From: Candidatus Krumholzibacteriia bacterium
Lineage (GTDB): Bacteria > Krumholzibacteriota > Krumholzibacteriia > Krumholzibacteriales > Krumholzibacteriaceae
Length of the DNA stretch: 64,000 bases
Direction of reading: 5' to 3'
Assembly (NCBI GenBank): GCA_963836185.1
Contig: CAWIIQ010000001.1
Coordinates: 1,049,424 to 1,113,423, forward strand
Position 1 is the stretch's first letter, and every line of letters starts with the position of its first letter. The translations under genes were made by a program, and so were the position numbers. This document shows, one piece after another, positions 29,965 to 61,884 of this stretch. The notes beneath the pieces are model-generated. The model was not told the DNA's origin and did no database searches. It saw only the letters and a program-made list of their open reading frames with translations.

Positions 29965-30135
29965 TCTCAATTCCACACTTCCCTCAAGATGTAAAGCGCG
30001 CATTCCCGGACGAGAAGGAATGCGTCGATGTAGGTAAATTATAGCGCAGTATGCCGTTTTTGTCAATATAGACAATCAGGGACAGACTGCCATCGGGCAT
30101 TTCCATCCATCCGGACCTCTCTGACGGAACGGTTA

Positions 30136-42355: not shown

Positions 42356-43366
42356 ATGCTCCGGTTGCCATGGGTGGGGAAAGGAAGTGACGACGTGGGC
42401 AATCTAAGGGAAGCTATGCGCCGGGAGCTGCGGCTCCGCAACTACAGTCCGGGCACGATCAGGACATATCTTCAGCACATGACAGAATTCACCAGGCACT
42501 TCGGCCGAAGTCCGTCCGAACTCGGCAGGGAAGAGATAAACTCCTACCTGCTCCACATGACGGAAGTAAGAAAGGTCTCCGCCACATACAGGGACCAGGC
42601 CATAAGCGCGCTGAAATTCTTCTACGGAAGGGTGCTGAAGAAACAGCTCATCATCGAAGAACTCCCACGTCCGAAGAAAGAATTCAAACTGCCGTCAGTG
42701 CTGAGCACAAAAGAAGTAGCTCGGCTCTTCCAGGCAGTCAGAAACCGGAAGCATCTCACCATCCTGATGCTCCTCTATTCCGGTGGTATGAGAGTAAGCG
42801 AAGTAGTCAGGCTCAAACCTGAGGACATCGATCCAGAAAGACACCTTATCAGGGTGCGAGGGGGAAAGGGACGGAAGGACAGGTACACAGTCCTCTCGGA
42901 TACGGCTCTCGATGTCCTCCGTGATTATTACCTGTCATGGAAGCCGGAATATTTTCTTTTTGAGGGAAACAGGAAAGGTTCTCATCTGTCGACAAGATCG
43001 GTCCAGAACGTCGTTTCAGCGGCCAGAAAGCGTGCCGGGCTGAAGAAGAAGTTCAGCACCCATGTTCTCAGGCACAGCTTCGCGACGCACCTCCTTGAAA
43101 GCGGCACCGATTTAAGGTATATTCAAGAACTACTGGGGCACAAAAGTGCCAGGACGACACAGATCTACACACATGTAACACGGAGGGATATCGCACGGAT
43201 CGTTAGCCCGCTGGACAGGATGATGGAGGGGGAAGCAGCGGCGACAGGACCGATCGGAACATCCGAACGGAAGAAATCTCCCACCCACCCCACCCATTTT
43301 ACTGAACGTCCTCGTCGCAAACGAACCAAAAACCGTCAAAACAACGAACCGGACACACACAAATAA
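42356..43366 (+). CDS. integron-type (IntI-related) tyrosine recombinase, co-oriented with the cassette array
   Basis: N-terminal SAM-like domain very similar in pattern to IntI (YSPGTIRTY..., ALKFFYG). Catalytic R...HxxR...Y present (VLRHSFATHLL, IYTHV). C-terminal SPLD. The IntI-specific insertion appears absent by eye. Identification rests mainly on the attC array starting about 460 bp downstream. Confidence 0.7.
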   Translation: MLRLPWVGKGSDDVGNLREAMRRELRLRNYSPGTIRTYLQHMTEFTRHFGRSPSELGREEINSYLLHMTEVRKVSATYRDQAISALKFFYGRVLKKQLIIEELPRPKKEFKLPSVLSTKEVARLFQAVRNRKHLTILMLLYSGGMRVSEVVRLKPEDIDPERHLIRVRGGKGRKDRYTVLSDTALDVLRDYYLSWKPEYFLFEGNRKGSHLSTRSVQNVVSAARKRAGLKKKFSTHVLRHSFATHLLESGTDLRYIQELLGHKSARTTQIYTHVTRRDIARIVSPLDRMMEGEAAATGPIGTSERKKSPTHPTHFTERPRRKRTKNRQNNEPDTHK

Positions 43367-43393
43367 ACTGTTATATGATAGCCGAGAGAGGCT

Positions 43394-43807: not shown

Positions 43808-43831
43808 TTGGGTTATGGGAGCTCGGCCATC

Positions 43832-43972
43832 ATATAACAGCAGTGTTCGCGGCTGCAGGCCTTCGGCCTTTCGCTCAGATGGCCTTTGTCACGGCGGCCG
43901 CAGGGCGACTGCCGCGCCAACCGGGCCTGGCGGCCCGGACGGCCACCTCGCGAACACGACCAATGTTATGTG
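43832..43972 (+). repeat. attC site 1 (type A, ~141 bp)
   Basis: catATAACAGcagtgttcgcgg...ctcgcgaacacgaccaatGTTATGt. Inverted cores with extrahelical bases. Confidence 0.8.
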
Positions 43973-43997
43973 ACATGACATTGAGATAGGAGGGGTA

Positions 43998-44593
43998 ATG
44001 AAAAGGCTATCTGCGGTCATATTCTTACTATTGCTGATGACGTCCGCTAGCGTACTTGCTGACTCGGTACAATTTACCATACGAGTTCATCGAGACGTTG
44101 AGGATATCTCTGCGCTAGAGGTGAAAACCTTTGAGATCATTTCGGGGGGACTATTCCCAGAAACTGAACTAGAAACAGAGATGAAGGAGAAGATTCGAGC
44201 ACGGATCGAGTCTACTGGATTAGTCTATGATCCTTCAAAGAAGGACCTCTTTGTTGGTGTTATCTTTGTTGGCTTCTCCGAGCATGGGAACAAGCTACCT
44301 GGATTGGAAGATTGGCCAAGTCAAACCCATGGATCTGTTGATTCAGCTTATGCGCTTCTAACTGCAGAATCTGAGAATACAGAAGGGCAAGGTGCATGGA
44401 GGTCCATCCAAATCCACATTCTTGCACCACCTATCAGGAAGTTCCGGTTCGGATCTGGACGGGCTCGGTTACATACGATGGATTAGAGACCGATACTGAT
44501 AAACTGGCAAATGTGATGTTGGAACAATTACTTCTTGAATATCCCGTGCCATCTGGAAAGCCAGAGTTGCGAGAAGTGATATTAAGTGAATAG
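43998..44593 (+). CDS. cassette 1: secreted hypothetical protein, frameshifted (ORFs 43998..44486 and 44396..44593)
   Basis: Signal peptide MKRLSAVIFLLLLMTSASVLA. Two overlapping frames both look protein-like. Confidence 0.4.
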
Positions 44594-44610
44594 TGGAGGG
44601 GTGTCACGTC

Positions 44611-44752
44611 ACATAACAGAGTGTTCGCGGCTGCAGGCCTTCGGCCTTTCGCATAGATGGCCTTTGTCACGGCGGCCGCAGAAGCGCCCGCCGCGCCAAC
44701 CGGGCCTGAGGGCCCGGACGGCCACCTCGCGAACACGACCAATGTTATTCGC
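44611..44752 (+). repeat. attC site 2 (type A)
   Basis: Near-identical to site 1. Ends GTTATTC. Confidence 0.8.
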
Positions 44753-44777
44753 CACCTAACCTTGCAAAGGAGATAAT

Positions 44778-44945
44778 GTGGATGTATTGAAAATGTTGCT
44801 TCCTTTCGGGATTGCCTTTTTAGTGTTCTTAGCTATAAGGGAAGTAATGTGCTGGTACTTCAGAATTAACAATATGCTCAATATGCTCAATAGTATTGAT
44901 ACCAGTTTAAAAAGAATGTCGGGAAGGACAGACAGTTCTTCTTAA
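44778..44945 (+). CDS. cassette 2: small (55 aa) hydrophobic protein
   Basis: Not in table (<60 aa). VDVLKMLLPFGIAFLVFLAIREVMCWYFRINNMLNMLNSIDTSLKRMSGRTDSSS. GTG or internal ATG start. Confidence 0.3.
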   Translation: MDVLKMLLPFGIAFLVFLAIREVMCWYFRINNMLNMLNSIDTSLKRMSGRTDSSS

Positions 44946-44976
44946 GACAATACAATTGATTTTACGGTTAGGCGGC

Positions 44977-45117
44977 GTATAACAGTGTGTTCGCGGCTGC
45001 AGGCCTTCGGCCTTTCGCTAAGATGGCCTTTGTCACGGCGGCCGCTAGAGCGCCCGCCGCGCCAACCGGGCCTGGCGGCCCGGACGGCCACCTCGCGAAC
45101 ACGACCAATGTTATCTG
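44977..45117 (+). repeat. attC site 3 (type A)
   Basis: gtATAACAGtgtgttcgcgg ... caatGTTATCt. Confidence 0.8.
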
Positions 45118-45194
45118 AAACCACACCTTATCGTGGTATAATTCAGCGTTGCGTGGATTCTGGCCACAAGACACTGTGCCCCAAGGATGATGAG

Positions 45195-47132
45195 ATGAAG
45201 AGCAAGAACCTCACAAGAGTACTGATCGCCTGCCTATTTATCATGATCTCTAACGAAATATCTGCTCAATGGTATGACTTGGGGAATCCTGTGTTCATTG
45301 ACCCGGGGATGTTTCAGGACACACACATTTCTTACGATGGCAATGGAGGCCTGTTCTTTACGTGGTGCGATTGGAGAAACGGGGGAGCCCCTTATCAGGC
45401 GGATGTCTATGCACAATATGTGAATGCTGACGGAATAGCACAATTCGGACTGTCGGGGATGCCAATCGATACGATCAGCGGCAATCAGTACAAGGCTAAT
45501 GTTTCATATGTGGGAGGGGATTGCGCGGTGATTGTATGGTCGGACCTGATGGATGGATATAAATTGCGAGCTCAGCGCATTAATTCCGAAGGAATGGTAT
45601 TCTGGGGAGACAGAGGTGTGGATGTATCAGAACAGTCAGGAATGGGAGAAGTCGCATCAGTGATTCCAGATATTAATGGAGGAGCCATAATATCCTGGAG
45701 AAATTTTTATGTTTGGATTCAACGGCTGGATTCACTGGGCAATCGGATGTGGGGGGAGGACGGAATAAGAATTAACAATATTGGGGACACTGTTGGCAGT
45801 GCTCCTGCAATTGTGAGTGATGGGGCGGGAGGCGCAATAATCGTATGGTCAGACTATCGCTCTGGGAGCATGACGCATGACATATATGCTCAACGTGTTA
45901 ACTCAAACGGGGATGAGTTATGGACAGACGGGGGATTGCCGATTAACAACAATGAAGGAGCTCAAACTCAACCCTCAATAGTGTTTGACGGAAATAACTC
46001 CTTTATCAGTTGGTTTAACAATACATGGGACATCGGTGTTCAGAAAATAGATCACGATGGTAATCTCTTATGGAATGTTAATGGAGTATATATTAGTCCA
46101 ATAGAGCCCAGACCTAAGTATCGAGCCATGGCTGCCGATAATCATGGAGGTGTGATTGCCGCTTGGGAAGATTTTAGGAATACGAGTTCAACTGAATCTG
46201 ATATTTACGCTCAGCGGATTCGCTCAGATGGGGAGATTGCATGGGATATAGATGGTATTGCGATTTACATTGGTGGAGGGGATCATCAACAGCCAGCAAT
46301 TTCTACCACATCATCAGGCGATGCTATCATTGTTTGGACTAATTATTATGGAATTTACGCACAACGAGTGGATACCAGCGGAGCAATATATTGGCCAGAA
46401 TACGGTGAAAACATTTCAAGAGGGCCAGGGTGCCAACACTGGCCACTTATCCAGAACATCGATGACAAAGAATTATTCGTTGTGTGGAATAAGAATGAGA
46501 ATGATGCATGTTATGGAAACGACGATTTATATGTTCAAAAGATTGATCTTGAAGGACACATTGTAGGCACATTTCTAGATCAGGCCGAATGGTATTGTGT
46601 CTCTGATGAAATATGTTTGAAATGGTCGATTGTCTTATCCGCAAATAATCTTGAATTCATTATACTGCGCACATTAAGCGGAGAGCATAAGTACAGAGAA
46701 GTTGGCCGGATTATTGGATTCGAACGTCAATCCGAATTTTGCTATATTGATAGCACATGTAAACTTGGGGAAAAGTACATATATCGTGTTATCGCTTCCA
46801 TGGAAGATGATGAGATGTTGCTTTTTGAAACTACAACAATCCTGATGCCAAATCTAAAGTATGTTCTTCATCAGAATTATCCGAATCCGTTCAATCCAAT
46901 AACCAAAATCTCATACAGTCTGCCAAAACAGTGCATCGTCAGCTTAAAGATATACGATATTATGGGAAAAGAGATTGTATGCCTTGTTAACAATCAATTG
47001 CAGCAAGGTGAACAGGTAATACATTGGGATGGTAAAAACCACTTCGGAGATCTTGTTTCTTCCGGAACATATTTTTGCAAGCTTTTTGCTGGAAAACAGA
47101 CAAAAGTAATTAAATTGATATGTCTGAGATGA
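45195..47132 (+). CDS. cassette 3: secreted repeat (beta-propeller-like) protein with T9SS C-terminal sorting domain
   Basis: Signal peptide MKSKNLTRVLIACLFIMISNEISAQ. About 8 repeats of ...GGAIIxWxD...IYAQRxNxxG.... C-terminal QNYPNPFNPITKISYSLP...IHWDGKNHFGDLVSSGTYFCKL = T9SS CTD. The table ORF start at 44985 lies inside attC 3 and is rejected. Confidence 0.7.
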   Translation: MKSKNLTRVLIACLFIMISNEISAQWYDLGNPVFIDPGMFQDTHISYDGNGGLFFTWCDWRNGGAPYQADVYAQYVNADGIAQFGLSGMPIDTISGNQYKANVSYVGGDCAVIVWSDLMDGYKLRAQRINSEGMVFWGDRGVDVSEQSGMGEVASVIPDINGGAIISWRNFYVWIQRLDSLGNRMWGEDGIRINNIGDTVGSAPAIVSDGAGGAIIVWSDYRSGSMTHDIYAQRVNSNGDELWTDGGLPINNNEGAQTQPSIVFDGNNSFISWFNNTWDIGVQKIDHDGNLLWNVNGVYISPIEPRPKYRAMAADNHGGVIAAWEDFRNTSSTESDIYAQRIRSDGEIAWDIDGIAIYIGGGDHQQPAISTTSSGDAIIVWTNYYGIYAQRVDTSGAIYWPEYGENISRGPGCQHWPLIQNIDDKELFVVWNKNENDACYGNDDLYVQKIDLEGHIVGTFLDQAEWYCVSDEICLKWSIVLSANNLEFIILRTLSGEHKYREVGRIIGFERQSEFCYIDSTCKLGEKYIYRVIASMEDDEMLLFETTTILMPNLKYVLHQNYPNPFNPITKISYSLPKQCIVSLKIYDIMGKEIVCLVNNQLQQGEQVIHWDGKNHFGDLVSSGTYFCKLFAGKQTKVIKLICLR

Positions 47133-47179
47133 TTATATACTCAATTTGAGCACTATACTTATAAGTCAGGTGTGGCTTC

Positions 47180-47321
47180 AGATAACAGAGTGTTCGCGGC
47201 TACAGGCCTTCGGCCCTTCGCTCAGATGGCCTTTGTCACGGCGGCCGCTAGAGCGCCCGCCGCGCCAACCGGGCCTGGCGGCCCGGACGGCCACCTCGCG
47301 AACACGACCAATGTTATCCGA
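47180..47321 (+). repeat. attC site 4 (type A)
   Basis: gATAACAGagtgttcgcgg ... caatGTTATCCg. Confidence 0.8.
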
Positions 47322-47539
47322 CATCTTATTGAAGCTTAAAGAGGTGAAATTGCTATGAAAATGATGAAGCCAATTGTTGTTCTGATAGTACTGATACTCC
47401 TGTTCTCGGTCGCAAAGTATGTCAGAGTTCAAGCATTTCATATTAGAAAGTGAGAGCAAGGTTGAGCTTCCTAATTATTTTTATGATGACCTAGAGCCAT
47501 ACGTTACAACAATAGATCGCCAGCATTCTGACAAAGAGG

Positions 47540-47986
47540 ATGATTCGCCTTGCTGAATCTGTTTATCCACCAAGAAGGAAGATGCTTGAGAAGCATCCAG
47601 GTTTGCCAGAAGAAATGGTAGCAGATTCACTGTGGGTGGCTGAAGAGCACGGCGATTTAAAAATACCCTACACACTAACTGCGAGTGCAGTTCGGTACTA
47701 TATTGATCTGATGAAGAGGTACGAAAAGAAGGACGAAACGCTCGATAGTATCCCGAAAAATGCAAAGTTAACATATAAAGCAGACATGCACGGTCCATCA
47801 ACTTTCATTATTAATGGTGAATTGTATGAAAATGTTAAGGTTGTAACCCTTGAGTTAAGCTGGTCCACCTATACTAATGCTTTGAATGCTGGAGGATTCA
47901 GTATTGTCAAGTTTGTGATTTTCGACAGGGAGAAGAATATTCTGGGTGTGTTTGGGGATGGATTCCCTGGAGAATGGGCGTCATGA
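47540..47986 (+). CDS. cassette 4: hypothetical protein (148 aa)
   Basis: Table ORF. No recognised domain. A 32-aa hydrophobic mini-ORF (47355..47453) precedes it. Confidence 0.45.
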   Translation: MIRLAESVYPPRRKMLEKHPGLPEEMVADSLWVAEEHGDLKIPYTLTASAVRYYIDLMKRYEKKDETLDSIPKNAKLTYKADMHGPSTFIINGELYENVKVVTLELSWSTYTNALNAGGFSIVKFVIFDREKNILGVFGDGFPGEWAS

Positions 47987-48014
47987 ACATTGGGAATATC
48001 CAATAGAAGACGTC

Positions 48015-48155
48015 GGATAACAGAGTGTTCGCGGCTGCAGGCCTTCGGCCTTCGCTCAGATGGCCTTTGTCACGGCGGCCGCTGGAGCGCCCGCCGCGCC
48101 AACCGGGCCTGGCGGCCCGGACGGCCACCTCGCGAACACGACCAATGTTATTCGC
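48015..48155 (+). repeat. attC site 5 (type A)
   Basis: ggATAACAGagtgttcgcgg ... caatGTTATTCg. Confidence 0.8.
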
Positions 48156-48559
48156 CATGTGGCAGATGAATAAATTTAACTTCGATTTCTTCTTATTTTT
48201 TAGGACTCTTCTTTCCCCGCAGTACAGCCCCATCCAGCCTCAGGGTGACTTCCGGAGTCTCTAAAGCCTGATCGATCCAGTACCTCATATTTTCTCCGAT
48301 GTTAAGGCCTAGACTCGTGCCGTAACGGGCCTGAGGGTGGCTTGCGGCTGAGACTGAGATCCTCGATCCTGAGGTTTTAAGGGGCCGAGATTGGTAGGGG
48401 AGAGCTCGTAAGGAACTTGCTTTCAACGATCGGGGCAATTCAGCGTACGACTTCGGGTCGCGCTGTCGCATCTTTATCAGCCAAGGGTTGGCTGAAAGAC
48501 TATTGAACCGGAGAGATTAAAGGATTAGATTTATAGGTGAGGGGTGATCTAGTATGAAT
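48156..48559 (+). other. cassette 5: ORF-less conserved element, copy 1 (candidate structured RNA / mobile 5' leader)
   Basis: About 404 bp between attC 5 and attC 6. Shares long conserved blocks with 51800..52215. Ends in SD-like aggtgagggg + ATG reading into attC 6. Confidence 0.5.
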
Positions 48560-48675
48560 TCCACACGGCGTATAACAGAGGTGTTCGCGGCTGCGCATGT
48601 CACCCGGCCTGCAGAGCACGCCGGGCGCCAATGCTTCGCGTACACCGCCTGCGGCGGCGTCGCGAACACTCACAA
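48560..48675 (+). repeat. attC site 6 (type B variant, ~116 bp)
   Basis: Same R''/L'' (tATAACAGaggtgttcgcgg) and L'/R' (cgcgaacactcacaatGTTATAC) but a different central region. Confidence 0.75.
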
Positions 48676-48740
48676 TGTTATACGATAAATGCCCTTATTC
48701 CTTTGACATATTCAATTCTACATAGATAGAATCTCCATAC

Positions 48741-51639
48741 ATGTTAGGGGAAACAATCTCACATTATGAAATTCTCGAGAAGCTCGGCGAGGGCGGGATG
48801 GGCGTAGTCTACCGCGCCCGTGACACGAAGCTCGACCGCGAGGTGGCTATCAAGCTCCTGCCCCCGCACCTGAGCTCCGATCCCGAGGCGGTAAAGAGGT
48901 TCGTCCATGAGGCGAAGACCGCCTCGGCCCTGAACCACTCCGCTATAGGCGTCATCCACGAGATAGACGAGACGGATGACGGCCAGACGTTCATCGCAAT
49001 GGCCCTCTACGAGGGGGGACTCTCAGGGAGAAGCATCGACAGCGGCAGCATGACATCTAGGCGAAGCAGTAACCATAGCCTCCCAGATAGCCTCGGGTCT
49101 CGACCAGGGCCCACGAGAAGGGGATAGTCCACAGGGACATCAAGCCGCAGAACATACTTCTGACCAGAGACGGCGAGGCGAAGATAATCGACTTCGGCCT
49201 AGCGAAGCTCGCCGGAAGGACGAAGCTGACGAGGGACGGGAGTACGCTCGGCACTGCCGCCTACATGTCCCCCGAGCAGGCGAGGGGAGAAGAGGTCGAT
49301 CACCGTTCGGACATCTTCTCTCTCGGGACGATCCTGTACGAGATGCTCGCCGGTGAGCCACCATTCAAGGGGGAGCACGAGGCGGCGTTGCTCTACGGGA
49401 TAGTGCACGAGGAGCATGAAGAGATATCGGAGAAGTGCGGGGGCATAGCACCGGAATTGTGCAATGTGGTCGGAAAGACGCTGAAGAAGGAAAAGGAAGC
49501 AAGGTATCAGAACGCGGCGGACCTGAAAGCTGAATTGAAGAGGTCGAGCACCGGCAGTGTCGATGAGGGCGGACCGAGGGATACGAAGGACGCTGGAAGA
49601 GGTAAAGGGTTCTGGATAGGCATTGCGGCGGTCACCGTGACACTCACAACTGCCGTACTTCTCGTAATGACCGGACGTGAGCCGGCGCCGCTTACCGCTT
49701 CGGAGATGACTCTCGCTGTGGTTGATTTTAATGACCTAGCAACAGAACCGGATCCTATAAAATCCAAGACGATTACAGAGCTGCTAAATACCTCCCTGGG
49801 AGATTTCTGTCCGATACGCGTTCAGAGCCCGGAACGAGTAAGGGAATGTCGAAGACAGCTTTTCGGTTCAACTGAAGCGCAGATAGAGGAAGGGCAGGAA
49901 CTGGAGATCGCGCGCAGGAGCGAAGCGACCTATTTGCTTACTGGCAGCATCAGTGTCGTTGGCAACGACGGTTTTATCTCTTGGAGGCTCATAGATGTAC
50001 TAAGTGGGACTATCATCAAGGCCGGAACAGTCGAACCAGGTGAGATGATGGCAGTAGTTGATAAGATCGTGGAGGTCGTATTGCCGGAGATCGCAGAAGC
50101 TTCGGGAGTTGAGCAGACTGCAGAGCAGGTTTCCGTGGCACAATCTCGACATCTTCACAGCAGGCGTTTGAGCATTACGTTAGGGGTAAGATAAATCATG
50201 ACAGCGATCGTCCAGTCGAAGCACTCGATGAATACACGAAAGCTGTCGGATTAGATTCCAGTTTTGCTCTTGCCTGGTTTGCTATGTCTAGACTCTACTA
50301 TGGTGCCATGATGATTAGGTATGATCCGGCACTTTATAATAAATACAATGAGCTTGCCTTAAGGTATGAATCCAGGATGGGCACCAAGGAGAGGATGCAG
50401 CTTCGTGCTATTAATCTTGGAGGAGTCAAAACGATAGAAAAACTCAAGGAAATCCTCGAGCTCTGGCCTGATGACCGCGAGACGCTGCAGATGCTCGTCC
50501 TCAGAACCCACTATAATTGGATGCAAAAAGAATGTATCGAGTACTCTCGAATCGGATTGACGCTATACCCGGAAGACCAGGTTTTCGGAGGAAGTATCTA
50601 TATCACATCTCTTAATAATTTGGGTCTAAGCCAAGAAGCGATGAAGGCGTCCAGAGAATTTATCAGAAAATATCCTGACGATTCGGCAGCTTGGCGTTCT
50701 CTTGCCGAGACATTTGTGGTCATGGGGCAACCGGACAGTGCCGAGGCGATCTGCAGAATAATTTTGGAGAAATATCCTGAAGGCAGCCAGAATGCAGAGG
50801 CAAGGCGGATGATAGCACGATGTGCATATCTTGCAGGCGATCTAGATGAATCGATTTCAAGGTATGATAGATTATTGTCAGACGCGAACCTGGATGAATC
50901 TACTCGTCAGGAGATTCTTTCTAACTATACTCACATTATAGATCTTACTTATGTATATCGAGAAGCTGGCCGCTACTACGACGCCTTGCGGACCTTGAAT
51001 GAGGCAAGACCGTACTTCGGCAACCGACCTGATCGCTGGGAATTACAAATGGGCTATCTGCTAGTAGATATTGGCAGGAACAAGAATGCGTTGAAACTCG
51101 CTGAAGAGATGCTTGCATCAGATAATATGCCAATGCAGAGGTATGCCAGACGATTCATGGGCAAGGCGCAAGTTAATAATGGTGATATCCAAGGTGCTCA
51201 GGAAACTGTATCGATACTGGATGGACTTGGCATAGTCAGGGGACCTATCTACAAGTACCATTCATTTTTCACTCAGGCATATATTGCATTGGCAAGGAAT
51301 GATGCTTCAGTGTCTCTAAAGCATCTTGATGATGCGGCCCAGATAGTGGGCTTCTCATACTGCATGTTCGGAATCGAGCTGAAGACATTGCAGGCGGAGG
51401 CGAACAGACTGGCAGGGGACCTGGAGGCGGCAGCCTCGATCCATGAAGAACTGCTGAGGATTCATGGCGGACATGCATTGTCACACTTCGAACTCGGTAA
51501 ACTGTATGAGGCAATGAGAAGAACGGACGAGGCAAAACTGCACTATAATAGATTCCTAGAGATGTGGAATAACGCTGATGATGGATTACCTCAACCTGCA
51601 CTCGCGAGGGAGAGACTGACAGCGCTTAAAGGTGTTTAA
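48741..51639 (+). pseudogene. cassette 6: degraded Ser/Thr protein kinase fused to a TPR domain (at least 3 frameshifts between 49010 and 49140)
   Basis: Kinase subdomains [27 protein letters not shown] and SPEQ are present but spread over three frames. The C-terminal TPR region (50284..51639) is intact in one frame and contiguous with the kinase region in sequence. Confidence 0.55.
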
Positions 51640-51658
51640 ATAGAGCAGGGCTTTCATC

Positions 51659-51799
51659 GCATAACAGTGTGTTCGCGGCTACAGGCCTTCGGCCCTTCGC
51701 TCAGATGGCCTTTGTCACGGCAGCCGCAGGGCGACTGCCGCGCCAACCGGGCCTTGAGGCCCGGACGGCCACCTCGCGAACACGACCAATGTTATCCGC
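51659..51799 (+). repeat. attC site 7 (type A)
   Basis: cATAACAGtgtgttcgcgg ... caatGTTATCCg. Confidence 0.8.
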
Positions 51800-52215
51800 T
51801 ATGTGGCAGCTGATTGAATTTATCTTCGATCTTTTCTTTTTATTGGGACCCTTCTTCCCGCCCATCCCAACCATTACCAGCCGGAGGTCGACTTCCGAGA
51901 GTCTCTAGAGCTAGTTCTGCAAGGTGACGAGTCCAACCCCTGTAAGAATAATGCCTCTATAGATGATCCGGCCTGAGGGTGGCTTGCGAGGCGCGACTGA
52001 GATCCTCGGGTCAAGAGGCTTTAAGGGCCGAAATAGGGGTAGGGGAGCGATCGTCAGGGACTTGCTATCATCGGTCTGAGGCAGGTTCATCTCTCGACTT
52101 CGGGAGGCGCAGTCGCAGTTCTATCAACGGGTCAACGCCGAAAGACTATTGAAAGTTCGAGATTAACGGTATAGATTTAGAGGTGAGGGGTGCCTATATA
52201 TGAATTCCACACAGC
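51800..52215 (+). other. cassette 7: ORF-less conserved element, copy 2
   Basis: Collinear with 48156..48559 (blocks ...atgtggcag..ttcgat..ttctt..., ggcctgagggtggcttgcg, gactgagatcctcg, cgacttcggg, aaagactattgaa, gagattaa.gg.atagattta.aggtgaggggtg...atgaattccacac). No conserved ORF on either strand. Confidence 0.5.
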
Positions 52216-52346
52216 GGATAACAGCAGTGTTCGCGGCTACGGGCCTTGAGGCCCTCGCTCAGATGGCCTTTACCGGCCTTTGGCGCGCCGGCCAACCGGG
52301 CCTGAGGCCCGACGACCAACTCGTTAACATGACCACTGTTATGGAG
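52216..52346 (+). repeat. attC site 8 (degenerate type A)
   Basis: ggATAACAGcagtgttcgcgg ... ctcgttaacatgaccactGTTATGG. L' arm mutated. ATG of the next gene lies inside R'. Confidence 0.65.
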
Positions 52347-52868
52347 GGACGTTTTAGAAAATGTAACATACGAATCATTCTGGTTGTTCTCGTCTTAACT
52401 TCAGCTCTTATATCCTGTGGAGAGGATAGCTGTGAGTGCCCTACACCTAATCCTATTGAATACACCAGCGTTGTGTTCTACTACAAAGATCATCCATATT
52501 GCTATTCAAGTACTGCTGGATTAGAGGTAGAGCTTTATGTCGGTGATGAACTCATAGGGTATTGGCATTATGGCTCTAATCCAGCAGATCCAAATCTAGA
52601 TTATCCTAATTCGCAACCTTTTCCGGTTGAGCTCGGAAGTGCCTTGAACCTTGAATTCAGGTATTGGGATAAATCAGGTCATGAGATGAGAGACACAGCA
52701 AATCTCATCATGGATGATGAAGATTGCACTTACGTCAGTTTCTTTGCCGACATAGAAAATCCCTGCCTGGGTGCTGAGTTATGTGATAGTTGTATTGTTT
52801 TTGAGATCGATGAAAACATGAAGTGTGAGGGTGCTGATTCAATCTATGTCGCTGTAGTGACTAATTGA
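52341..52868 (+). CDS. cassette 8: Cys-rich lipoprotein
   Basis: MEGRFRKCNIRIILVVLVLTSALISCGEDSCEC.... The ORF is also open upstream through attC 8 to the ATG at 52200 of the conserved element. Confidence 0.55.
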   Translation: MEGRFRKCNIRIILVVLVLTSALISCGEDSCECPTPNPIEYTSVVFYYKDHPYCYSSTAGLEVELYVGDELIGYWHYGSNPADPNLDYPNSQPFPVELGSALNLEFRYWDKSGHEMRDTANLIMDDEDCTYVSFFADIENPCLGAELCDSCIVFEIDENMKCEGADSIYVAVVTN

Positions 52869-52881
52869 TGGAGACAGCGGC

Positions 52882-53024
52882 ATATAACAGTGTGTTCGCG
52901 GCTACGGGCCTTGCGGCCCTTCGCTCAGATGGCCTTTGTCACGGCGGCCGCAGAAGCGCCCGCCGCGCCAACCGGGCCTGGCGGCCCGGACGGCCACCTC
53001 GCGAACACGACCAATGTTATCCGC
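52882..53024 (+). repeat. attC site 9 (type A)
   Basis: catATAACAGtgtgttcgcgg ... caatGTTATCCg. Confidence 0.8.
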
Positions 53025-53038
53025 AAGCGTATTATGAT

Positions 53039-53434
53039 ATGAACAAGTTCCCAGCAATATTTTTTTTGTCACTCCTTCTGGCTTCCTGCCGAGATCCTTT
53101 CGCGCATGAATGGGAAAACTTATATCAGCTCAGCGCAGATCAGATTATTCTACCCGATACTGCTCAAATATTTCAACCGATGCAGGTCAAAGTGCAGGTT
53201 ACTTTAGATACATCTAATCATAATTACAAAGACCAATATATCGAAACAACACCAGATGGCTATCTGATAGTGCTGATTGGTGTAATAGAAGATACGAGAT
53301 TTCCAGATAATGACCCGGATCCCAGAACAGAATGGCATTCTTTTAACCTTATCCCATTTAAGAAAGGAGAAGTAATCATTGAGGGGAAACGAGTCAATTC
53401 AGAGAATCTTATTGATTCAGTGTATGTTCAGTAG
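53039..53434 (+). CDS. cassette 9: lipoprotein, 'EWHxF' family member 1
   Basis: MNKFPAIFFLSLLLASCRDP... contains ...PDT...TEWHSFNLIP.... Paralogous to 54398..54760 and 54947..55336. Confidence 0.6.
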   Translation: MNKFPAIFFLSLLLASCRDPFAHEWENLYQLSADQIILPDTAQIFQPMQVKVQVTLDTSNHNYKDQYIETTPDGYLIVLIGVIEDTRFPDNDPDPRTEWHSFNLIPFKKGEVIIEGKRVNSENLIDSVYVQ

Positions 53435-53447
53435 TGGGCACGCCTGC

Positions 53448-53589
53448 GCATAACAGAGTGTTCGCGGCTACGGCCTTCGGCCTTTCGCTCAGATGGCCTT
53501 TGTCACGGCGGCCGCTGGAGCGCCCGCCGCGCCAACCGGACTTGGCGGCCCCGGACGGCCACCTCGAAAACACGACCAACGTTATACGA
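53448..53589 (+). repeat. attC site 10 (type A)
   Basis: gcATAACAGagtgttcgcgg ... ctcgaaaacacgaccaacGTTATAC. Confidence 0.8.
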
Positions 53590-53646
53590 AAGGCCGGGAA
53601 GCGATAAAAAAGAACCTTGACAGATATGCATATATGATGCATACTG

Positions 53647-54207
53647 ATGCATATGAGAACTACACTGAATATTGACGATGATCTGATTCGCAAGGCAGCG
53701 AAGATGACAGGGATCAGCGAGAAGACTTCCCTGGTACGCCTCGGGCTTGAAGCATTGATCGCTCTTGAGAGCGCGAGAAGGCTAGCAGCTCTTGGCGGCA
53801 CAGAGAAAGATCTTGGCCCTGATTCCTCGCAAACGAACGAGTTCGTGAGTATGATCCTGGCTGATACATCTGTATGGATCGATCATCTTCGCAATGGAAA
53901 CAAGCGGATGGCTCTTTTTCTGAACGAAGGTGTCGTTTTGTGTCATCCTTTCATACTCGGGGAATTGGCCTGTGGGAACCTCAAAAACAGAGCTAAAATA
54001 CTCGATATGCTTGCTTCCCTTCCGACAATGCCAGTTGCAGAGCACAGTGAAGTGCTTGATTTCATTTCCCGATACAAATTCCAAGGGAAGGGTATAGGGT
54101 GGATCGATGCCCATCTGTTGGCATCAACATTTCTGGCGAAAAGCCGAATCTGGACTCTCGACAAATCTTTACTAAAGATAGCAAAAGACCTGAAGGTCTC
54201 AATATAG
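53647..54207 (+). CDS. cassette 10: VapB-like antitoxin + PIN-domain VapC toxin in a single open frame
   Basis: N-terminal MRTTLNIDDDLIRKAAKMTGISEKTSLVRLGLEALIA (VapB/DUF2191-like). C-terminal MILADTSVWIDHL...GELACGN...IDAHLLA (PIN acidic residues). No stop between the two parts. Confidence 0.7.
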   Translation: MHMRTTLNIDDDLIRKAAKMTGISEKTSLVRLGLEALIALESARRLAALGGTEKDLGPDSSQTNEFVSMILADTSVWIDHLRNGNKRMALFLNEGVVLCHPFILGELACGNLKNRAKILDMLASLPTMPVAEHSEVLDFISRYKFQGKGIGWIDAHLLASTFLAKSRIWTLDKSLLKIAKDLKVSI

Positions 54208-54239
54208 GGCAATCAAAAGGTTTAGTAGCCGGCCACTTC

Positions 54240-54382
54240 GTATAACAGAGTGTTCGCGGCTGCGGGCCTTGCGGCCCTTCGCTCAGATGGCCTTTGTCAC
54301 GGCGGCCGCAGGAGCACCCGCCGCGCCAACCGGGCCTGGCGGCCCGGACGGCCACCTCGCGAACACGACCAATGTTATCCGA
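54240..54382 (+). repeat. attC site 11 (type A)
   Basis: gtATAACAGagtgttcgcgg ... caatGTTATCCg. Confidence 0.8.
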
Positions 54383-54397
54383 AAGCGCGGGATATGT

Positions 54398-54760
54398 ATG
54401 AATAAAAAAATCGCATTATCGATCCCATTACTTCTTGTAGTTGCATGTAATCTATTCAAGCCACCTGAAAAGATACAAACATGGGCTGATGTCGAACAGA
54501 TTGTTGTTCCTGATACTGTTGACTATTTCGAAGCTTTCGAGATCAGCGCTGAAATTTCAATGGACCATACATGTAAGTATGTAGGTCCTGTGCTGGAAGA
54601 AACTTCTGAGGGCTGCTCCATTACCATTATCGTTGAATCTGTGGAAGTGAGCTTTCATGAAAAGGATATTTCTGAGTGGCATACCTTTACTCTGAGACCT
54701 CTCGAATTGGGATCTTACATCATCAGGGTGAAAAGTAAGAATGTGGAAGATTCTTGTTGA
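54398..54760 (+). CDS. cassette 11: lipoprotein, 'EWHxF' family member 2
   Basis: MNKKIALSIPLLLVVACNLF... contains ...PDT...SEWHTFTLRP.... Confidence 0.6.
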   Translation: MNKKIALSIPLLLVVACNLFKPPEKIQTWADVEQIVVPDTVDYFEAFEISAEISMDHTCKYVGPVLEETSEGCSITIIVESVEVSFHEKDISEWHTFTLRPLELGSYIIRVKSKNVEDSC

Positions 54761-54789
54761 TTCAACTTACGTTCGTTAGATGCGCCATC

Positions 54790-54932
54790 GGATAACAGTG
54801 TGTTCGCGGCTACAGGCCTTGCGGCCTTTCGCTCAGATGGCCTTTGTCACGGCGGCCGCAGGAGCGCCCGCCGCGCCAACCGGGCCTGGGGGCCCGGACG
54901 GCCACCTCGCGAACACGACCAATGTTATGCGA
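54790..54932 (+). repeat. attC site 12 (type A)
   Basis: ggATAACAGtgtgttcgcgg ... caatGTTATGCg. Confidence 0.8.
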
Positions 54933-54946
54933 AGGCGAGGGGAACA

Positions 54947-55336
54947 ATGAAATTAGCGGTTGGAATAATTGCAATTATCGTTATTTGCTCTTCCTGCGAA
55001 GATCCACCAGTAAAAGTATGTGACCGACCAGTAATGTTGGAAGTAGAACAGTTGATGGCTCCGGATTCTTGCAGGTTAGGTGAGCAGGCACAATTACAAG
55101 TCGAAGTAATTCTTAACGGTTCAAGTTATAGTTATTTCGGCCCCGACATTAACGACACAGATTCGGGTTGTAGAATAAGGATTATGGGAGAAAAAGATGA
55201 ATGTGCACTTAACACTCCTTGCATTTGCTACGAGTGGCATTCGTTTGTTATTTCCCCCTCACAAACGGGAATATACATAATAGAGATAATTAATTCTCAA
55301 GCTGATGATTTAGCGGATACAATAACAGTGTATTAG
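54947..55336 (+). CDS. cassette 12: lipoprotein, 'EWHxF' family member 3
   Basis: MKLAVGIIAIIVICSSCEDP... contains ...YEWHSFVISP.... Confidence 0.6.
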   Translation: MKLAVGIIAIIVICSSCEDPPVKVCDRPVMLEVEQLMAPDSCRLGEQAQLQVEVILNGSSYSYFGPDINDTDSGCRIRIMGEKDECALNTPCICYEWHSFVISPSQTGIYIIEIINSQADDLADTITVY

Positions 55337-55346
55337 CTGTGCCATC

Positions 55347-55486
55347 GGATAACAGAGTGTTCGCGGCTGCAGGCCTTCGGCCTTTCGCTCAGATGGCCTT
55401 TGTCACGACAGCCGCAGGGCGACTGCCGCGCTAACCGGGCCTGGCGGCCCGGACGGCCACCTCGCGAACACGACCAATGTTATGTG
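55347..55486 (+). repeat. attC site 13 (type A)
   Basis: ggATAACAGagtgttcgcgg ... caatGTTATGTg. Confidence 0.8.
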
Positions 55487-55512
55487 CAATGCTGTGCATT
55501 AATTTAAAGGGG

Positions 55513-55677
55513 ATGAAGTTGAAGAAACTATCTCTGATCATCGGAATTCTCGCATTAGCCGTTGCAATAATCATCTTCATATATGCTTCTGGTGCTAGGC
55601 GAATTTATAGCGGCCTCTTATTTATATTGATAGCTATCATCCAATTCACTTTTGCTCTTCGAAAAGGTGATAAATGA
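55513..55677 (+). CDS. cassette 13: small two-TM membrane protein (54 aa)
   Basis: MKLKKLSLIIGILALAVAIIIFIYASGARRIYSGLLFILIAIIQFTFALRKGDK. Confidence 0.4.
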   Translation: MKLKKLSLIIGILALAVAIIIFIYASGARRIYSGLLFILIAIIQFTFALRKGDK

Positions 55678-55693
55678 TCAATAAGGGCACTGC

Positions 55694-55768
55694 ACATAAC
55701 AGAGTGTTCGCGGCTGCGGGCCTTGCGGCCCGGACGGCCATCTCGCGAACACGACCAACGTTATGCGA
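55694..55768 (+). repeat. attC site 14 (short variant, ~75 bp, central region deleted)
   Basis: acATAACAGagtgttcgcggctgcgggccttgcggcccggacggccatctcgcgaacacgaccaacGTTATGC. Confidence 0.7.
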
Positions 55769-55812
55769 AAAGCCGCAGACGTTAAAACCTACCCCTGGGA
55801 GGAGATGATGTG

Positions 55813-56269
55813 ATGTTGAAATCAGGAATGTTCATCATTGCCGCTGTTTTTTTTATTCTCGCTCCTTATTTCTTGTGAGGATGAAGAAGGCATCATTTGT
55901 GGGGGAGAGTGCCTTTATCATGAGATACCAGGCACAGCATCTATTATTTCTGTTACTGATATTGATGGATCTACCTATTGTGGAGATCCTGTCGAGGTGA
56001 TTTACAACTTTACTCCAGATGATCCAAGCGATATTGATCCAGACTATTTGACGATTTGGCCACTCGATAATATTTACTACAAGATAGGTCAAAACAATCC
56101 GCCACGAAGATGGGTTGAAACGCATGGACTTCTGGCAGGAACAGACCATCCATGTACAAGATTTAGGATTTACAAGGGATCTTGTGTGCCTGTTGGATAC
56201 AATTTTGATGGCATAGATGATTACAGTGTCTCTGATTCATGTGATGTATGGGAGCAAGAGATACCATAA
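55813..56269 (+). CDS. cassette 14: lipoprotein of the 'DSCxVWE' family; frameshift in a T8 homopolymer at ~55848
   Basis: ATG 55813 gives MLKSGMFIIAAVFF. After removing one T of the T8 run this continues ...LFSLLISCEDEEG... (lipobox). C-terminus ...DSCDVWEQEIP. Confidence 0.5.
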
Positions 56270-56293
56270 GTAAACTTGATTACTGCGACCACC

Positions 56294-56426
56294 GCATAAC
56301 AGAGGCATTTGCGTACTCGCCTGGCTTCGCCAGAACTAGGCTGTCACGGCCGTTGCAATTTGAGTGCATGATGATAGATAAATAGGGGATTGCGGCTGCG
56401 CCGCGAATGCTCACAATGTTATACGG
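56294..56426 (+). repeat. attC site 15 (type B-like variant, diverged arms)
   Basis: gcATAACAGaggcatttgcg ... cgcgaatgctcacaatGTTATAC. Shares the ...ctcacaatgttatac end with site 6. Confidence 0.65.
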
Positions 56427-56452
56427 CATGCAGTTCATGGCAGGGGAATAAA

Positions 56453-56995: not shown

Positions 56996-57042
56996 AGACC
57001 TGAGTATTGGGGAACTGGACTTTGAATAGGTGGCTGCACGCC

Positions 57043-57105
57043 GGATAACAGTGTGTTCGCGGCTGCAGGCTCAGGCGGCCACCTCGCGAGCATAAGCAAT
57101 TGAAG
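57043..57105 (+). repeat. attC site 16 (truncated, R' core mutated): array terminus
   Basis: cggATAACAGtgtgttcgcggctgcaggc|tcaggcggccacctcgcgagcataagcaattg. Central part missing. GTTAT replaced. Confidence 0.6.
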
Positions 57106-57216: not shown

Positions 57217-59436
<2,220 letters not shown>

Positions 59437-59939: not shown

Positions 59940-59942
59940 GGC

Positions 59943-61854: not shown

Positions 61855-61884
61855 TCATGGCCGGGCTCAGGGGCATACCCAACT

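What the first reader, a model, noticed from the sequence alone, without database searches (positions are those of the whole stretch)
45195..47132. Integron cassette carrying a T9SS-sorted beta-propeller repeat protein
A 2-kb cassette (42% GC) encodes a 645-aa secreted protein with about 8 degenerate repeats and a canonical T9SS C-terminal domain (QNYPNPFNPITKISYSLP...DGKNHFGDLVSSGTYFCKL). The host's own T9SS cargos (26700-28697, 28732-29964) have the same CTD architecture but at about 60% GC. So a horizontally acquired, integron-mobilised protein has been equipped for the recipient's type IX secretion pathway. To my knowledge this is an undocumented cargo type for integrons.
Basis: partly seen in the sequence, partly recalled or inferred. 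Interest (0 to 1): 0.65.

Follow-up and report, generated by a model that had tools for sequence, protein, structure and literature searches.

The report
Cassette-borne type IX secretion cargo protein
One gene cassette in an integron-like array of an uncultured, probably Krumholzibacteriota, bacterium encodes an exported propeller protein with a type IX secretion tag that its wider protein family already carries, which makes it a real but fairly ordinary case of mobile cassettes carrying secreted proteins.

Summary
ORF 45195-47132 (+) encodes a 645-aa protein with a signal peptide, eight degenerate repeats, an Ig-like spacer and a C-terminal domain. That domain passes the T9SS type-A models (TIGR04183 39.5 bits, cutoff 23; PF18962 30.8, cutoff 27). 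The gene is 42.3% GC against 58.3% for the host. It fills a 2,203-bp unit (45111-47313) between two 136-nt attC-like palindromes that are 97% identical, fourth in an array of about 15.

The sorting domain was not fitted to the recipient: about 50 of the 119 top homologues readable here, mostly around 1,070 aa and lying in ordinary chromosomal loci where checked, carry the same tag. The cassette's tag is closer to theirs (34-42%, with one 19% outlier) than to the host's (30-33%), and it is the lowest-GC part of the gene. Low GC is shared by every cassette in the array.

The platform is not a canonical integron. Its recombinase lacks the IntI-specific insertion, although comparative evidence supports site-specific cassette insertion. 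No second T9SS-tagged cassette ORF turned up in the fetched DNA around about 70 related attC sites outside the window. T9SS machinery could not be checked. The finding is a new member of a known kind; the unusual recombinase is the more interesting lead.

The parts
42356..43366 (+). Tyrosine recombinase next to the array, on the same strand as the cassettes. It is IntI/XerA-like but lacks the IntI-specific insertion.
   Evidence: PF00589 and PF13495 match. NF040815 scores 244.8 (cutoff 220). TIGR02249 scores 230.9 (cutoff 265) in two stretches. Against VchIntIA (2a3v), 17 aa stand where the chain has 59 (query 190-208, chain 179-239). Orthologues of 71-76% identity sit upstream of arrays in L002 and L009.
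43367..43374 (+). attI-like junction ACTGTTAT directly after the recombinase stop codon. Sequence conservation between related platforms ends here.
   Evidence: In alignment A5 the window, L002 and L009 agree through ...AAATAAACTGTTAT and then diverge completely.
43834..57100 (+). Array of 15 attC-like repeats. Most are 135-137 nt; shorter copies lie at 48572-48681, 52218-52342 and 55696-55764, and the last copy at 57045 is degenerate. They delimit 14 cassettes plus one attI-proximal unit.
44979..45114 (+). Upstream attC-like site. It ends the preceding cassette, and its GTTAT at 45110-45114 marks the start of the cargo cassette.
   Evidence: The bottom strand folds at -52.0 kcal/mol (z -7.2); the top strand folds at -41.3.
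45111..47313 (+). The cargo cassette itself, 2,203 bp, counted from G|TT to G|TT. It is the fourth unit from the attI-like junction.
   Evidence: Boundaries come from the R' cores. The interior, 45115-47181, is 42.4% GC.
45115..45142 (+). Promoter-like element inside the cassette (CTGAAA, 16-nt spacer, TG-TATAAT), 53 nt upstream of the ATG.
   Evidence: It is the best consensus match in 43300-47500 (10 of 12, extended -10). This is a consensus match only, and the promoter rules of this phylum are unknown.
45195..47132 (+). Cargo gene, 645 aa: signal peptide (aa 1-25), eight-repeat beta-propeller (about aa 26-465), Ig-like beta-sandwich (about aa 466-555), T9SS type-A CTD (about aa 556-645).
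   Evidence: The AlphaFold2 model has pLDDT 85.4 and pTM 0.71, is all-beta, and residues 1-25 are low-confidence. The leading Foldseek PDB matches are mostly beta-propellers.
46878..47120 (+). Stretch matching the T9SS type-A sorting domain models (aa 562-642).
   Evidence: TIGR04183 39.5 bits and PF18962 30.8 bits. The model shows seven beta-strands across 562-643. The PNPFNP, YD..GK and SGxYF...K...R motifs align with host and homologue CTDs.
47182..47317 (+). Downstream attC-like site belonging to the cargo cassette.
   Evidence: The bottom strand folds at -51.8 kcal/mol (z -6.7).
26700..28697 (-). Host-composition secreted GH43/GH32-like protein with a CTD-like tail.
   Evidence: PF04616 and PF00251 match. 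FlgD_ig scores 29.8 (cutoff 27). TIGR04183 scores only 15.9, below the cutoff of 23. GC3 is 0.70.
28732..30075 (-). Host-composition protein with a T9SS type-A CTD.
   Evidence: TIGR04183 scores 31.8 (cutoff 23). GC3 is 0.71.

Best explanation
Window 45111-47313 is a gene cassette, fourth in a chromosomal integron-like array. The array belongs to an uncultured bacterium whose attC type and recombinase orthologues occur in Candidatus Krumholzibacteriota genomes.

The cassette carries one intact gene. Its product would be made as a pre-protein with a Sec signal peptide, exported to the periplasm, and recognised through its C-terminal type-A sorting domain by a type IX secretion system. [quoted passage not shown] It is most likely a non-enzymatic ligand- or glycan-binding surface module.

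The secretion tag was not added for this host. The gene is a short, single-propeller member of a large family whose long members (about 1,000-1,100 aa) already combine propeller repeats, an Ig-like domain and this tag. A tagged gene from some T9SS-bearing lineage entered the cassette pool, and it works in any host with a compatible T9SS.

Shown here: the anatomy, the domain identities, the cassette boundaries, the ancestry of the tag, and cassette turnover at this platform. Inferred: actual secretion, expression, the ligand, and the presence of T9SS machinery in this genome.
For: The protein and its tag:
- The CTD passes TIGR04183 and PF18962.
- It sits at the extreme C-terminus, and the model shows seven strands there.
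- An N-terminal signal-peptide-like sequence corresponds to the low-confidence N-terminal segment of the model.
- There are eight repeats, and the leading Foldseek PDB matches are mostly beta-propellers, E 4e-10 to 1e-7, probability 1.0.

Ancestry of the tag:
- The family consensus is a unit of about 59 aa repeated many times, followed by a conserved C-terminal region and the CTD (alignment A2).
- About 50 of the 119 top homologues readable here carry a CTD.
- CTD identity is 34-42% to seven of eight homologue CTDs (one outlier at 19%) and 30-33% to the host CTDs.
- The CTD-coding DNA is the lowest-GC part of the gene.
- Homologues P0010 and P0015 lie among housekeeping genes, not in cassettes.

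The cassette and the platform:
- The flanking attC-like sites are 97% identical.
- Their bottom strand is more stable than the top (about -52 against -41 kcal/mol, z about -7), and the consensus fold has an R box, an asymmetric loop and an L box.
- The recombinase is conserved upstream and on the same strand in L002, L009 and L038.
- Conservation stops exactly at GTTAT after the recombinase stop codon.
- The VapBC cassette recurs in four other arrays, and the kinase also matches L035.

The host:
- Host-composition CTD proteins lie at 26700-30075.
- A homologue from Krumholzibacteriaceae is named a T9SS type A sorting domain protein by NCBI.
- T9SS is described as a trait of the FCB superphylum (PMC11205867).
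Against: - No T9SS machinery gene (SprA/Sov, PorV, PorU, GldK-N) was seen in the part of the window that was scanned (about 30 host ORFs). The rest of the genome could not be reached.
- NCBI taxonomy does not place Krumholzibacteriota inside the FCB group.
- The recombinase fails a defining IntI feature, so its recombination activity on these sites is inferred from comparison, not from family membership.
- This cassette was found only once. No second copy, and no other T9SS-tagged cassette ORF, appeared in the fetched DNA around about 70 related attC sites outside the window. This was a motif screen of ORFs of at least 60 aa.
- The propeller has no specific structural or sequence match that would indicate a ligand (TM-score normalised to the query at most 0.38, identity 9-12%).
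- The promoter is only a consensus match.
Confidence: 0.68

Rival explanations
1. One reading: a foreign passenger gene acquired through the integron was secondarily fitted with a CTD, or had its CTD adapted, to match the recipient's T9SS.
For: The host has CTD proteins ending in nearly the same C-terminal residues (KLVLLR and KMILLR, against KLICLR in the cargo). The passenger repeats also occur without a CTD in other phyla, for example the Margulisbacteria hits, so the tag is modular over evolutionary time.
Against: The cassette's CTD is closer to seven of eight family CTDs (34-42%) than to the host CTDs (30-33%). The highest-scoring, near-full-length homologues listed mostly carry CTD-type Pfam domains. 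The CTD-coding segment is 35.6% GC, the lowest in the gene and far from host GC3 of about 0.70. No junction or composition break lies between the passenger and the tag.
Confidence: 0.05
2. The C-terminal domain is a generic FlgD-like Ig domain with a structural or surface role, and the organism has no T9SS. The protein would then be only periplasmic, or exported by another route.
For: The same stretch also matches FlgD_ig (PF13860, 20.7 bits) and FlgD families. One host 'cargo' passes only FlgD_ig. No T9SS machinery was seen in the window. NCBI taxonomy lists Krumholzibacteriota outside the FCB group.
Against: TIGR04183 and PF18962 are both above their curated cutoffs, while FlgD_ig is below its own. 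The domain is strictly C-terminal, follows a signal-peptide protein, and keeps the motifs shared with the host and homologue CTDs in the alignment. NCBI labels the Krumholzibacteriaceae homologue a T9SS type A sorting domain protein.
Confidence: 0.1
3. The unit is a silent or decaying passenger: a half-length derivative of a two-propeller family, stored in the array but not expressed or not functional.
For: At 645 aa it is much shorter than any of the 119 listed homologues (804-1,122 aa; medians 1,071 with a CTD and 906 without). It aligns to the C-terminal 645 residues of P0010. It is the fourth cassette from the insertion point. The cassette is a singleton.
Against: The ORF is intact in an assembly that shows frameshifts in other genes. 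The model is confident and compact (pLDDT 85.4), with eight repeats, enough for a closed propeller. The signal peptide and the tag are both retained, and there is a promoter-like site inside the cassette.
Confidence: 0.12
4. The 136-nt repeats are not recombination sites. They would be REP-like or regulatory palindromes, and the gene is simply a fixed chromosomal gene.
For: The recombinase lacks the domain that canonical IntI uses to read the extrahelical bases of attC. Covariation in the repeat is weak: 2 of 49 pairs show compensatory change.
Against: Three related platforms share the recombinase gene and a GTTAT junction and then carry entirely different first units. The VapBC cassette recurs in four other arrays at 80-87% identity. 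The repeats have AAC...GTT cores, a strand-asymmetric fold and cassette-sized spacing, and the listed cassette ORFs are co-oriented. Public contigs break right after the recombinase in four assemblies.
Confidence: 0.05

Closest known systems
T9SS type-A cargo proteins (TIGR04183/PF18962 CTD proteins, such as gingipain RgpB of Porphyromonas gingivalis and the secreted enzymes and adhesins of Flavobacterium johnsoniae)
   Same: An N-terminal Sec signal, a passenger domain and a C-terminal sorting domain of about 80 aa that passes the curated models. The model predicts a seven-stranded sandwich for that domain.
   Different: The host is outside the Bacteroidota. The passenger is an uncharacterised propeller family. 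The gene sits in a cassette array rather than at an ordinary chromosomal locus. Secretion has not been tested.
The protein's own family: propeller-repeat proteins of about 1,000-1,100 aa with an Ig-like domain and a CTD, from uncultured bacteria (for example P0051, named 'T9SS type A sorting domain-containing protein', Candidatus Krumholzibacteriaceae; also P0002 and P0010)
   Same: The same repeat unit of about 59 aa (...SDGxGGAIVxWxDxR...DIYAQRV...), the same Ig-like domain and the same CTD. Overall identity is 30-34%, and 38-42% within the CTD for the closest members.
   Different: The cassette version has 8 repeats, where the long members give roughly 12-15 motif matches. It is 42% GC. The two homologues whose surroundings were examined lie among housekeeping genes.
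Sedentary chromosomal integrons (the Vibrio superintegron with its VCR repeats; integrons whose intI gene points the same way as the cassettes, as I recall for Treponema denticola, from memory)
   Same: A fixed chromosomal site, a long array of co-oriented small ORFs separated by nearly identical palindromic sites of about 130 nt with AAC/GTT cores, toxin-antitoxin cassettes, many exported proteins, and an insertion point next to the recombinase gene.
   Different: The recombinase lacks the IntI-specific insertion. The insertion point abuts its stop codon. The R' core reads GTTAT rather than GTTRRRY, and the spacer between the R and L boxes is strongly asymmetric (6 nt against 2-3 nt).
Cassette-encoded secreted and transmembrane proteins in environmental integrons (Ghaly et al. 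2023, PMC10661359; Ghaly et al. 2022, PMC9668308)
   Same: Cassettes are enriched for signal-peptide proteins (16.1% against 6.8% in metagenomes; 13.2% against 6.9% in archaeal arrays). In this array at least 9 of 14 cassettes appear, by eye, to encode exported or membrane proteins.
   Different: Those surveys scored the Sec signal only and do not mention a T9SS sorting domain. At 2.2 kb this cassette is the second largest in the array.

Membership tests
T9SS type-A cargo (CTD protein) | A C-terminal domain matching TIGR04183 / PF18962 above the curated cutoffs | tested here: met
   TIGR04183 39.5 bits (cutoff 23) and PF18962 30.8 bits (cutoff 27), over aa 562-642 of 645.
T9SS type-A cargo (CTD protein) | An N-terminal Sec signal peptide | tested here: inconclusive
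   The sequence shows a basic n-region, a hydrophobic core and an ISA-Q site, and residues 1-25 are the low-confidence segment of the model. No signal-peptide predictor was available.
T9SS type-A cargo (CTD protein) | An Ig-like seven-stranded sandwich with the conserved CTD motifs | tested here: met
   The model shows seven strands across 562-643. The PNPFNP, YDxxGK and SGxYFxxL...K...R motifs align with host and homologue CTDs.
T9SS type-A cargo (CTD protein) | The host encodes the T9SS machinery (SprA/Sov, PorV, PorU, PorK-N/GldK-N) | not testable with these tools
   None was found among about 30 host ORFs scanned in the window. The remaining 2.25 Mb of the contig could not be fetched. Indirect support comes from two host-composition CTD proteins in the window.
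T9SS type-A cargo (CTD protein) | CTD-dependent secretion and processing | not testable with these tools
   This needs an experiment.
Integron gene cassette | Bounded by attC sites: imperfect palindromes with R''/L''...L'/R' boxes and AAC...GTT cores, 57-141 nt long | tested here: met
   The sites are 136 nt and read ATAAC-AGN-GTGTTCGCG...CGCGAACAC-GACCAAT-GTTAT. The R' core is GTTAT(N)Y, not the full GTTRRRY. IntegronFinder's attC model could not be run.
Integron gene cassette | A single-stranded fold of the bottom strand with an unpaired spacer or extrahelical bases that mark the strand | tested here: inconclusive
   The bottom strand folds at about -52 kcal/mol, the top at about -41. The consensus has a 6-bp R box, an asymmetric loop of 6 against 2-3 nt, and a 9-bp L box. 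Canonical single extrahelical G and T bases were not identifiable, and covariation is weak (2 of 49 pairs).
Integron gene cassette | Usually one ORF, oriented towards its attC, in a compact unit | tested here: met
   An 80-nt leader, one 645-aa ORF and a 49-nt trailer before the attC.
Integron gene cassette | Evidence of mobility: the same cassette in different arrays or positions | tested here: not met
   No second copy of this cassette exists in 44 fetched loci. Another cassette of the same array (VapBC) does recur in four other arrays, so mobility is shown for the array but not for this unit.
Complete integron (IntI platform) | An adjacent tyrosine recombinase with the IntI-specific additional domain around patch III (Messier and Roy 2001, as cited in PMC9668308) | tested here: not met
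   17 aa stand where VchIntIA has 59. TIGR02249 scores 230.9, below the cutoff of 265, and matches in two pieces. The insertion is absent from all eight family members aligned.
Complete integron (IntI platform) | An attI insertion site next to the integrase gene, with variable cassettes beyond it | tested here: met
   Conservation among the window, L002 and L009 ends at ACTGTTAT, directly after the stop codon.
Beta-propeller repeat protein | Tandem repeats of about 50-60 aa, each forming a four-stranded blade that closes into a ring | tested here: inconclusive

The most novel reading that the evidence does not exclude
The cargo is less unusual than the platform that carries it. The array appears to be run by a recombinase family related to IntI and XerA that lacks the IntI-specific domain.

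The gene lies on the same strand as the cassettes, with the insertion point (G|TTAT) directly after its stop codon. The family is 50-82% identical across Krumholzibacteriota, Latescibacteria, Dehalococcoidia, Nitrospiraceae and several archaeal lineages. Where downstream DNA is available, attC-like cassette arrays follow it.

If this family really catalyses cassette capture, it is a second, unrecognised kind of integron platform. Tools that require the IntI domain would report its arrays as orphan attC clusters. It would also extend cassette-borne expansion of the secretome, including T9SS cargo, to many uncultured phyla.
Probability: 0.35. Interest if true: 0.7.

Novelty: new member of a known kind. 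Interest (0 to 1): 0.3.

Why it matters
If the protein is secreted as predicted, a T9SS surface proteome can be extended by plug-in cassettes, because the secretion tag travels with the gene and needs no adaptation. That is a modest extension of the known tendency of cassettes to encode exported proteins that mediate interactions. The larger potential value lies in the platform: a recombinase without the IntI hallmark domain that nevertheless sits at the head of attC-type arrays in several lineages. This bears on how integron-like systems are defined and detected in uncultured phyla.

Tried and rejected
- Rfam gathering scan of the whole window: no match, so the repeats are not a curated RNA family.
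- Exact look-up of the protein's contig, with both the 645-aa and the 715-aa version: not on record, so the rest of the genome stayed out of reach.
- Literature searches for integron plus T9SS or sorting domain, and for Krumholzibacteriota plus integron or secretion system: nothing relevant. The supplement of PMC10661359 is not held.
- Search for further T9SS-tagged cassettes in the fetched DNA around about 70 related attC sites in genome and metagenome loci (a motif screen of ORFs of at least 60 aa): none. The only hit (L010 5879-9370) lies 3.6 kb from the attC on a contig of host-like GC.
- Search for attC copies downstream of katG, by a pairing rule and by low-stringency blastn: none after about 57100.
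- Scan of about 30 host ORFs for T9SS parts: none.
- Sequence search of the CTD against PDB: only weak FlgD hits, E at least 0.07.
- Rejected ideas: that the CTD was grafted from the host; that low GC is specific to this gene; that the integrase gap is a sequencing artefact (orthologues and the whole family share it).
Full report
**1. The observation**

The + strand carries an ORF ending at 47132. From the ATG at 45195 it encodes 645 aa beginning MKSKNLTRVLIACLFIMISNEISAQ. The longest possible ORF starts at a GTG inside the upstream repeat and gives the 715-aa version held in public protein collections. The gene is 42.3% GC (GC3 39.8%), against 58.3% for window 1-42000. Eight degenerate repeats are present: six end in the motif [YVIAG]xQ[RKY][IVL] near residues 72, 231, 281, 338, 388 and 446, and two more (near 124 and 177) were read by eye from the translation.

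The last 80 or so residues match the T9SS type-A sorting domain above both curated thresholds: TIGR04183 at 39.5 bits (cutoff 23, E 4e-10) and PF18962 at 30.8 bits (cutoff 27).

Three details need correcting. The two host 'cargo' genes are on the minus strand, at 26700-28697 and 28732-30075. They are 57% GC, not 60%. Only the second passes TIGR04183 (31.8 bits); the first scores 15.9 and passes only the related FlgD_ig model.

**2. The cassette and its array**

Fifteen copies of a palindromic repeat lie between 43834 and 57100, all in one orientation. Most are 135-137 nt. Each begins ATAAC-AGN-GTGTTCGCG and ends CGCGAACAC-GACCAAT-GTTAT. The two copies flanking the gene (44979-45114 and 47182-47317) are 97% identical.

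As single strands, the bottom strand folds much better than the top: about -52 against -41 kcal/mol, with z-scores of -6.7 to -7.2 against shuffles. The consensus fold of 29 copies from many contigs has four elements:
- a 6-bp R box;
- an asymmetric internal loop, 6 nt against 2-3 nt;
- a 9-bp L box;
- a branched distal part.

Only 2 of 49 pairs show compensatory change, because the copies are more than 90% alike.

Counted from G|TT to G|TT, the cargo cassette is 45111-47313 (2,203 bp). It has an 80-nt leader, one ORF and a 49-nt trailer. It is the fourth unit from the recombinase and the second largest in the array.

The other cassettes encode a VapBC pair, an RNase T-like exonuclease, a Ser/Thr kinase with a TPR protein, and many small proteins of unknown function. 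By eye, at least 9 of the 14 cassettes encode a signal peptide, a lipoprotein-type N-terminus or a membrane helix.

**3. Is it an integron?**

The gene at 42356-43366, on the same strand as the cassettes, is a tyrosine recombinase with the IntI-type N-terminal domain (PF13495 and PF00589). Its best solved relative is the Vibrio integron integrase (2a3v, E 1e-42). In that alignment, however, 17 residues stand where VchIntIA has 59 (query 190-208, chain 179-239). That is the region of the IntI-specific additional domain around patch III, which the field uses to define IntI (PMC9668308). The protein scores 230.9 on TIGR02249, below the cutoff of 265, and matches in two pieces. It passes NF040815, 'site-specific tyrosine recombinase/integron integrase'. 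By the standard definition the platform is therefore not a complete integron.

The comparative evidence for site-specific cassette insertion is nevertheless good:
- Orthologues of the recombinase (71-76% identity, same gap, same basic C-terminal tail) sit upstream of, and on the same strand as, arrays of the same attC type in L002 (a Krumholzibacteriota genome) and L009.
- A 61%-identical relative in another Krumholzibacteriota genome (L038) heads an array of toxin-antitoxin and nuclease genes separated by repeats ending CGAAATGTTAT.
- The window, L002 and L009 are alike through the recombinase stop codon plus ACTGTTAT (window 43367-43374) and then become unrelated. That is the signature of an insertion site.
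- The VapBC cassette recurs in four other arrays at 80-87% protein identity, and the kinase also matches L035.
- L039 shows the same HAD - PP2C - ribonucleotide reductase - flavin reductase - recombinase order as window 36-43 kb, so the platform sits at a fixed chromosomal site.

**4. The protein**

An AlphaFold2 model built on 29 homologues is confident (pLDDT 85.4, pTM 0.71) and all-beta. Residues 1-25 are disordered or helical, as expected for a signal peptide. Each repeat contributes three to four strands. A further beta domain spans about 466-555, and seven strands span 562-643.

The leading Foldseek matches in the PDB are mostly beta-propellers, including sialidases, GH43 arabinanases, DPP8, BamB and TolB. 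E-values run from 4e-10 to 1e-7 and probability is 1.0. Identity is only 9-12%, and the TM-score normalised to the query is at most 0.38. The propeller fold is therefore supported, but no specific function follows from it. Blade number is inferred from the repeat count, and ring closure could not be inspected.

**5. Where the secretion tag comes from**

The homology search returned more than 6,700 relatives, none above 35% identity. Their consensus is a unit of about 59 aa (...SDGxGGAIVxWxDxR...DIYAQRV...) repeated many times, followed by a conserved C-terminal region and the same CTD (alignment A2).

Of the 119 top homologues readable here, about 50 carry the CTD (median length 1,071 aa). The other 69, including the Margulisbacteria and WOR-1 hits, lack it (median 906 aa). 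The cassette protein aligns to the C-terminal 645 residues of the 1,084-aa homologue P0010.

Three lines of evidence show the tag came with the gene:
- Its CTD is 34-42% identical to seven of eight homologue CTDs (the eighth, P0105, is 19%) but only 30-33% to the two host CTDs. The host CTDs are 37% identical to each other.
- The CTD-coding segment is the most AT-rich part of the gene (35.6% GC), the opposite of what a graft from the host would give, since host GC3 is about 0.70.
- The two homologues whose surroundings were examined lie among ribosomal, RNase and two-component-regulator genes, not in cassettes.

The gene is best read as a short, single-propeller member of a family that was already T9SS-tagged. 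It was not 'equipped' for this host.

**6. How far horizontal acquisition is shown**

Low GC is not specific to this gene. Every cassette in the array is 38-52% GC, the attC sites themselves are 68% GC, and the fetched stretches around related arrays are 41-52% GC where they are mostly array, while their flanks and the host are about 56-58%. The composition marks the cassette pool as a whole and says nothing about a donor. No close relative of the gene exists in the collections, so the donor is unknown.

**7. How general it is**

A motif screen (PNP[FS] or NPFN, ORFs of at least 60 aa) of 35 loci carrying about 70 related attC sites outside the window found no other cassette ORF with the T9SS tag. 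The single hit (L010 5879-9370) is a 1,163-aa gene 3.6 kb from the attC, on a contig of host-like GC. In this sample the cassette is a one-off.

The literature searches found nothing linking integron cassettes to T9SS sorting domains. They did confirm that cassette proteins are enriched in signal peptides: 16.1% against 6.8% (PMC10661359) and 13.2% against 6.9% (PMC9668308).

**8. What could not be tested**

No T9SS machinery gene was found among about 30 host ORFs scanned in the window. The remaining 2.25 Mb of the contig could not be fetched. T9SS is described as a trait of the FCB superphylum (PMC11205867). NCBI taxonomy lists Krumholzibacteriota directly under Bacteria, and no paper on T9SS in that phylum was found. 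Support for a T9SS in this host is therefore indirect: two host-composition CTD proteins in the window, and NCBI's naming of a Krumholzibacteriaceae homologue. Expression is also untested; the TG-TATAAT element at 45115-45142 is only a consensus match.

**9. Verdict**

The feature is real and the anatomy was described correctly. It is a cassette-borne, Sec-exported, T9SS-tagged propeller protein. That makes it a new member of two known kinds, cassette-encoded exported proteins and T9SS type-A cargo. It is not a new mechanism, and the idea of adaptation to the recipient is not supported. The platform's recombinase, which lacks the IntI hallmark domain yet heads attC-type arrays in several lineages, is the more unusual observation and deserves its own follow-up.

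Noticed in passing
window 42356-43374; L002 394-1368; L009 2214-3248; L038 10001-20909; L040 4204-7222: The recombinase at the head of the array belongs to a large cross-phylum family that includes archaeal lineages (50-82% identity). NCBI names some members 'site-specific tyrosine recombinase/integron integrase'. All eight members aligned lack the IntI-specific insertion, and the longer ones have an N-terminal extension of about 100 aa instead. Where downstream DNA exists, co-oriented cassette-like arrays follow. In the window, L002 and L009 the insertion point G|TTAT abuts the stop codon.
   Followed up: partly
L039, L042, L043, L044 (3' ends of the contigs): In four public assemblies the contig ends 125-425 nt after a recombinase gene of this family. 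This is what is expected if a repeat array downstream breaks short-read assembly.
   Followed up: no
window 17309-19379; 39466-41734; 48741-50194; 53647-54207: Several genes look frameshifted: a DEAH helicase, the B12-dependent ribonucleotide reductase and a Ser/Thr kinase are each split into two overlapping ORFs. VapB and VapC are fused into one ORF here but match other loci in two reading frames. These are probably indel errors of a long-read assembly, or pseudogenes.
   Followed up: no
window 57045-63490: The array ends in a degenerate attC at about 57045-57100, followed by a host-composition katG (57232-59436). The low-GC ORFs after katG (59424-63490) have 56-72% identical homologues in loci that carry this attC family elsewhere (L001, L002, L016, L027). 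No attC of this family was detected after 57100, so cassettes may continue with lost or different sites.
   Followed up: partly
window 53039-53434, 54398-54760, 54947-55336; 55838-56269 and 59424-59939: Some cassettes encode paralogous small lipoproteins. Three are 28-30% identical to one another, and a further pair is 34% identical. None has a Pfam match where tested.
   Followed up: no
window array 43367-57044; loci L008-L037: The composition is three-tiered: cassette interiors are about 38-52% GC, the attC sites are 68% GC and the host is about 58%. The fetched stretches around related arrays from several metagenomes are likewise 41-52% GC, so the cassette pool as a whole is far more AT-rich than its hosts.
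   Followed up: no
L044 (DATKWS010000247.1, labelled Patescibacteria group): This contig has the same gene order as the window (PP2C - ribonucleotide reductase - flavin reductase - recombinase) and as L039. Its taxonomic label is probably a binning error.
   Followed up: no
L006 9192-10439; window 26700-28697: In L006 the gene next to the long cargo homologue P0010 encodes a GH32N/GH43-type protein. The window's first host CTD protein has the same domain pair. This may hint at a link to glycan use, or it may be coincidence.
   Followed up: no
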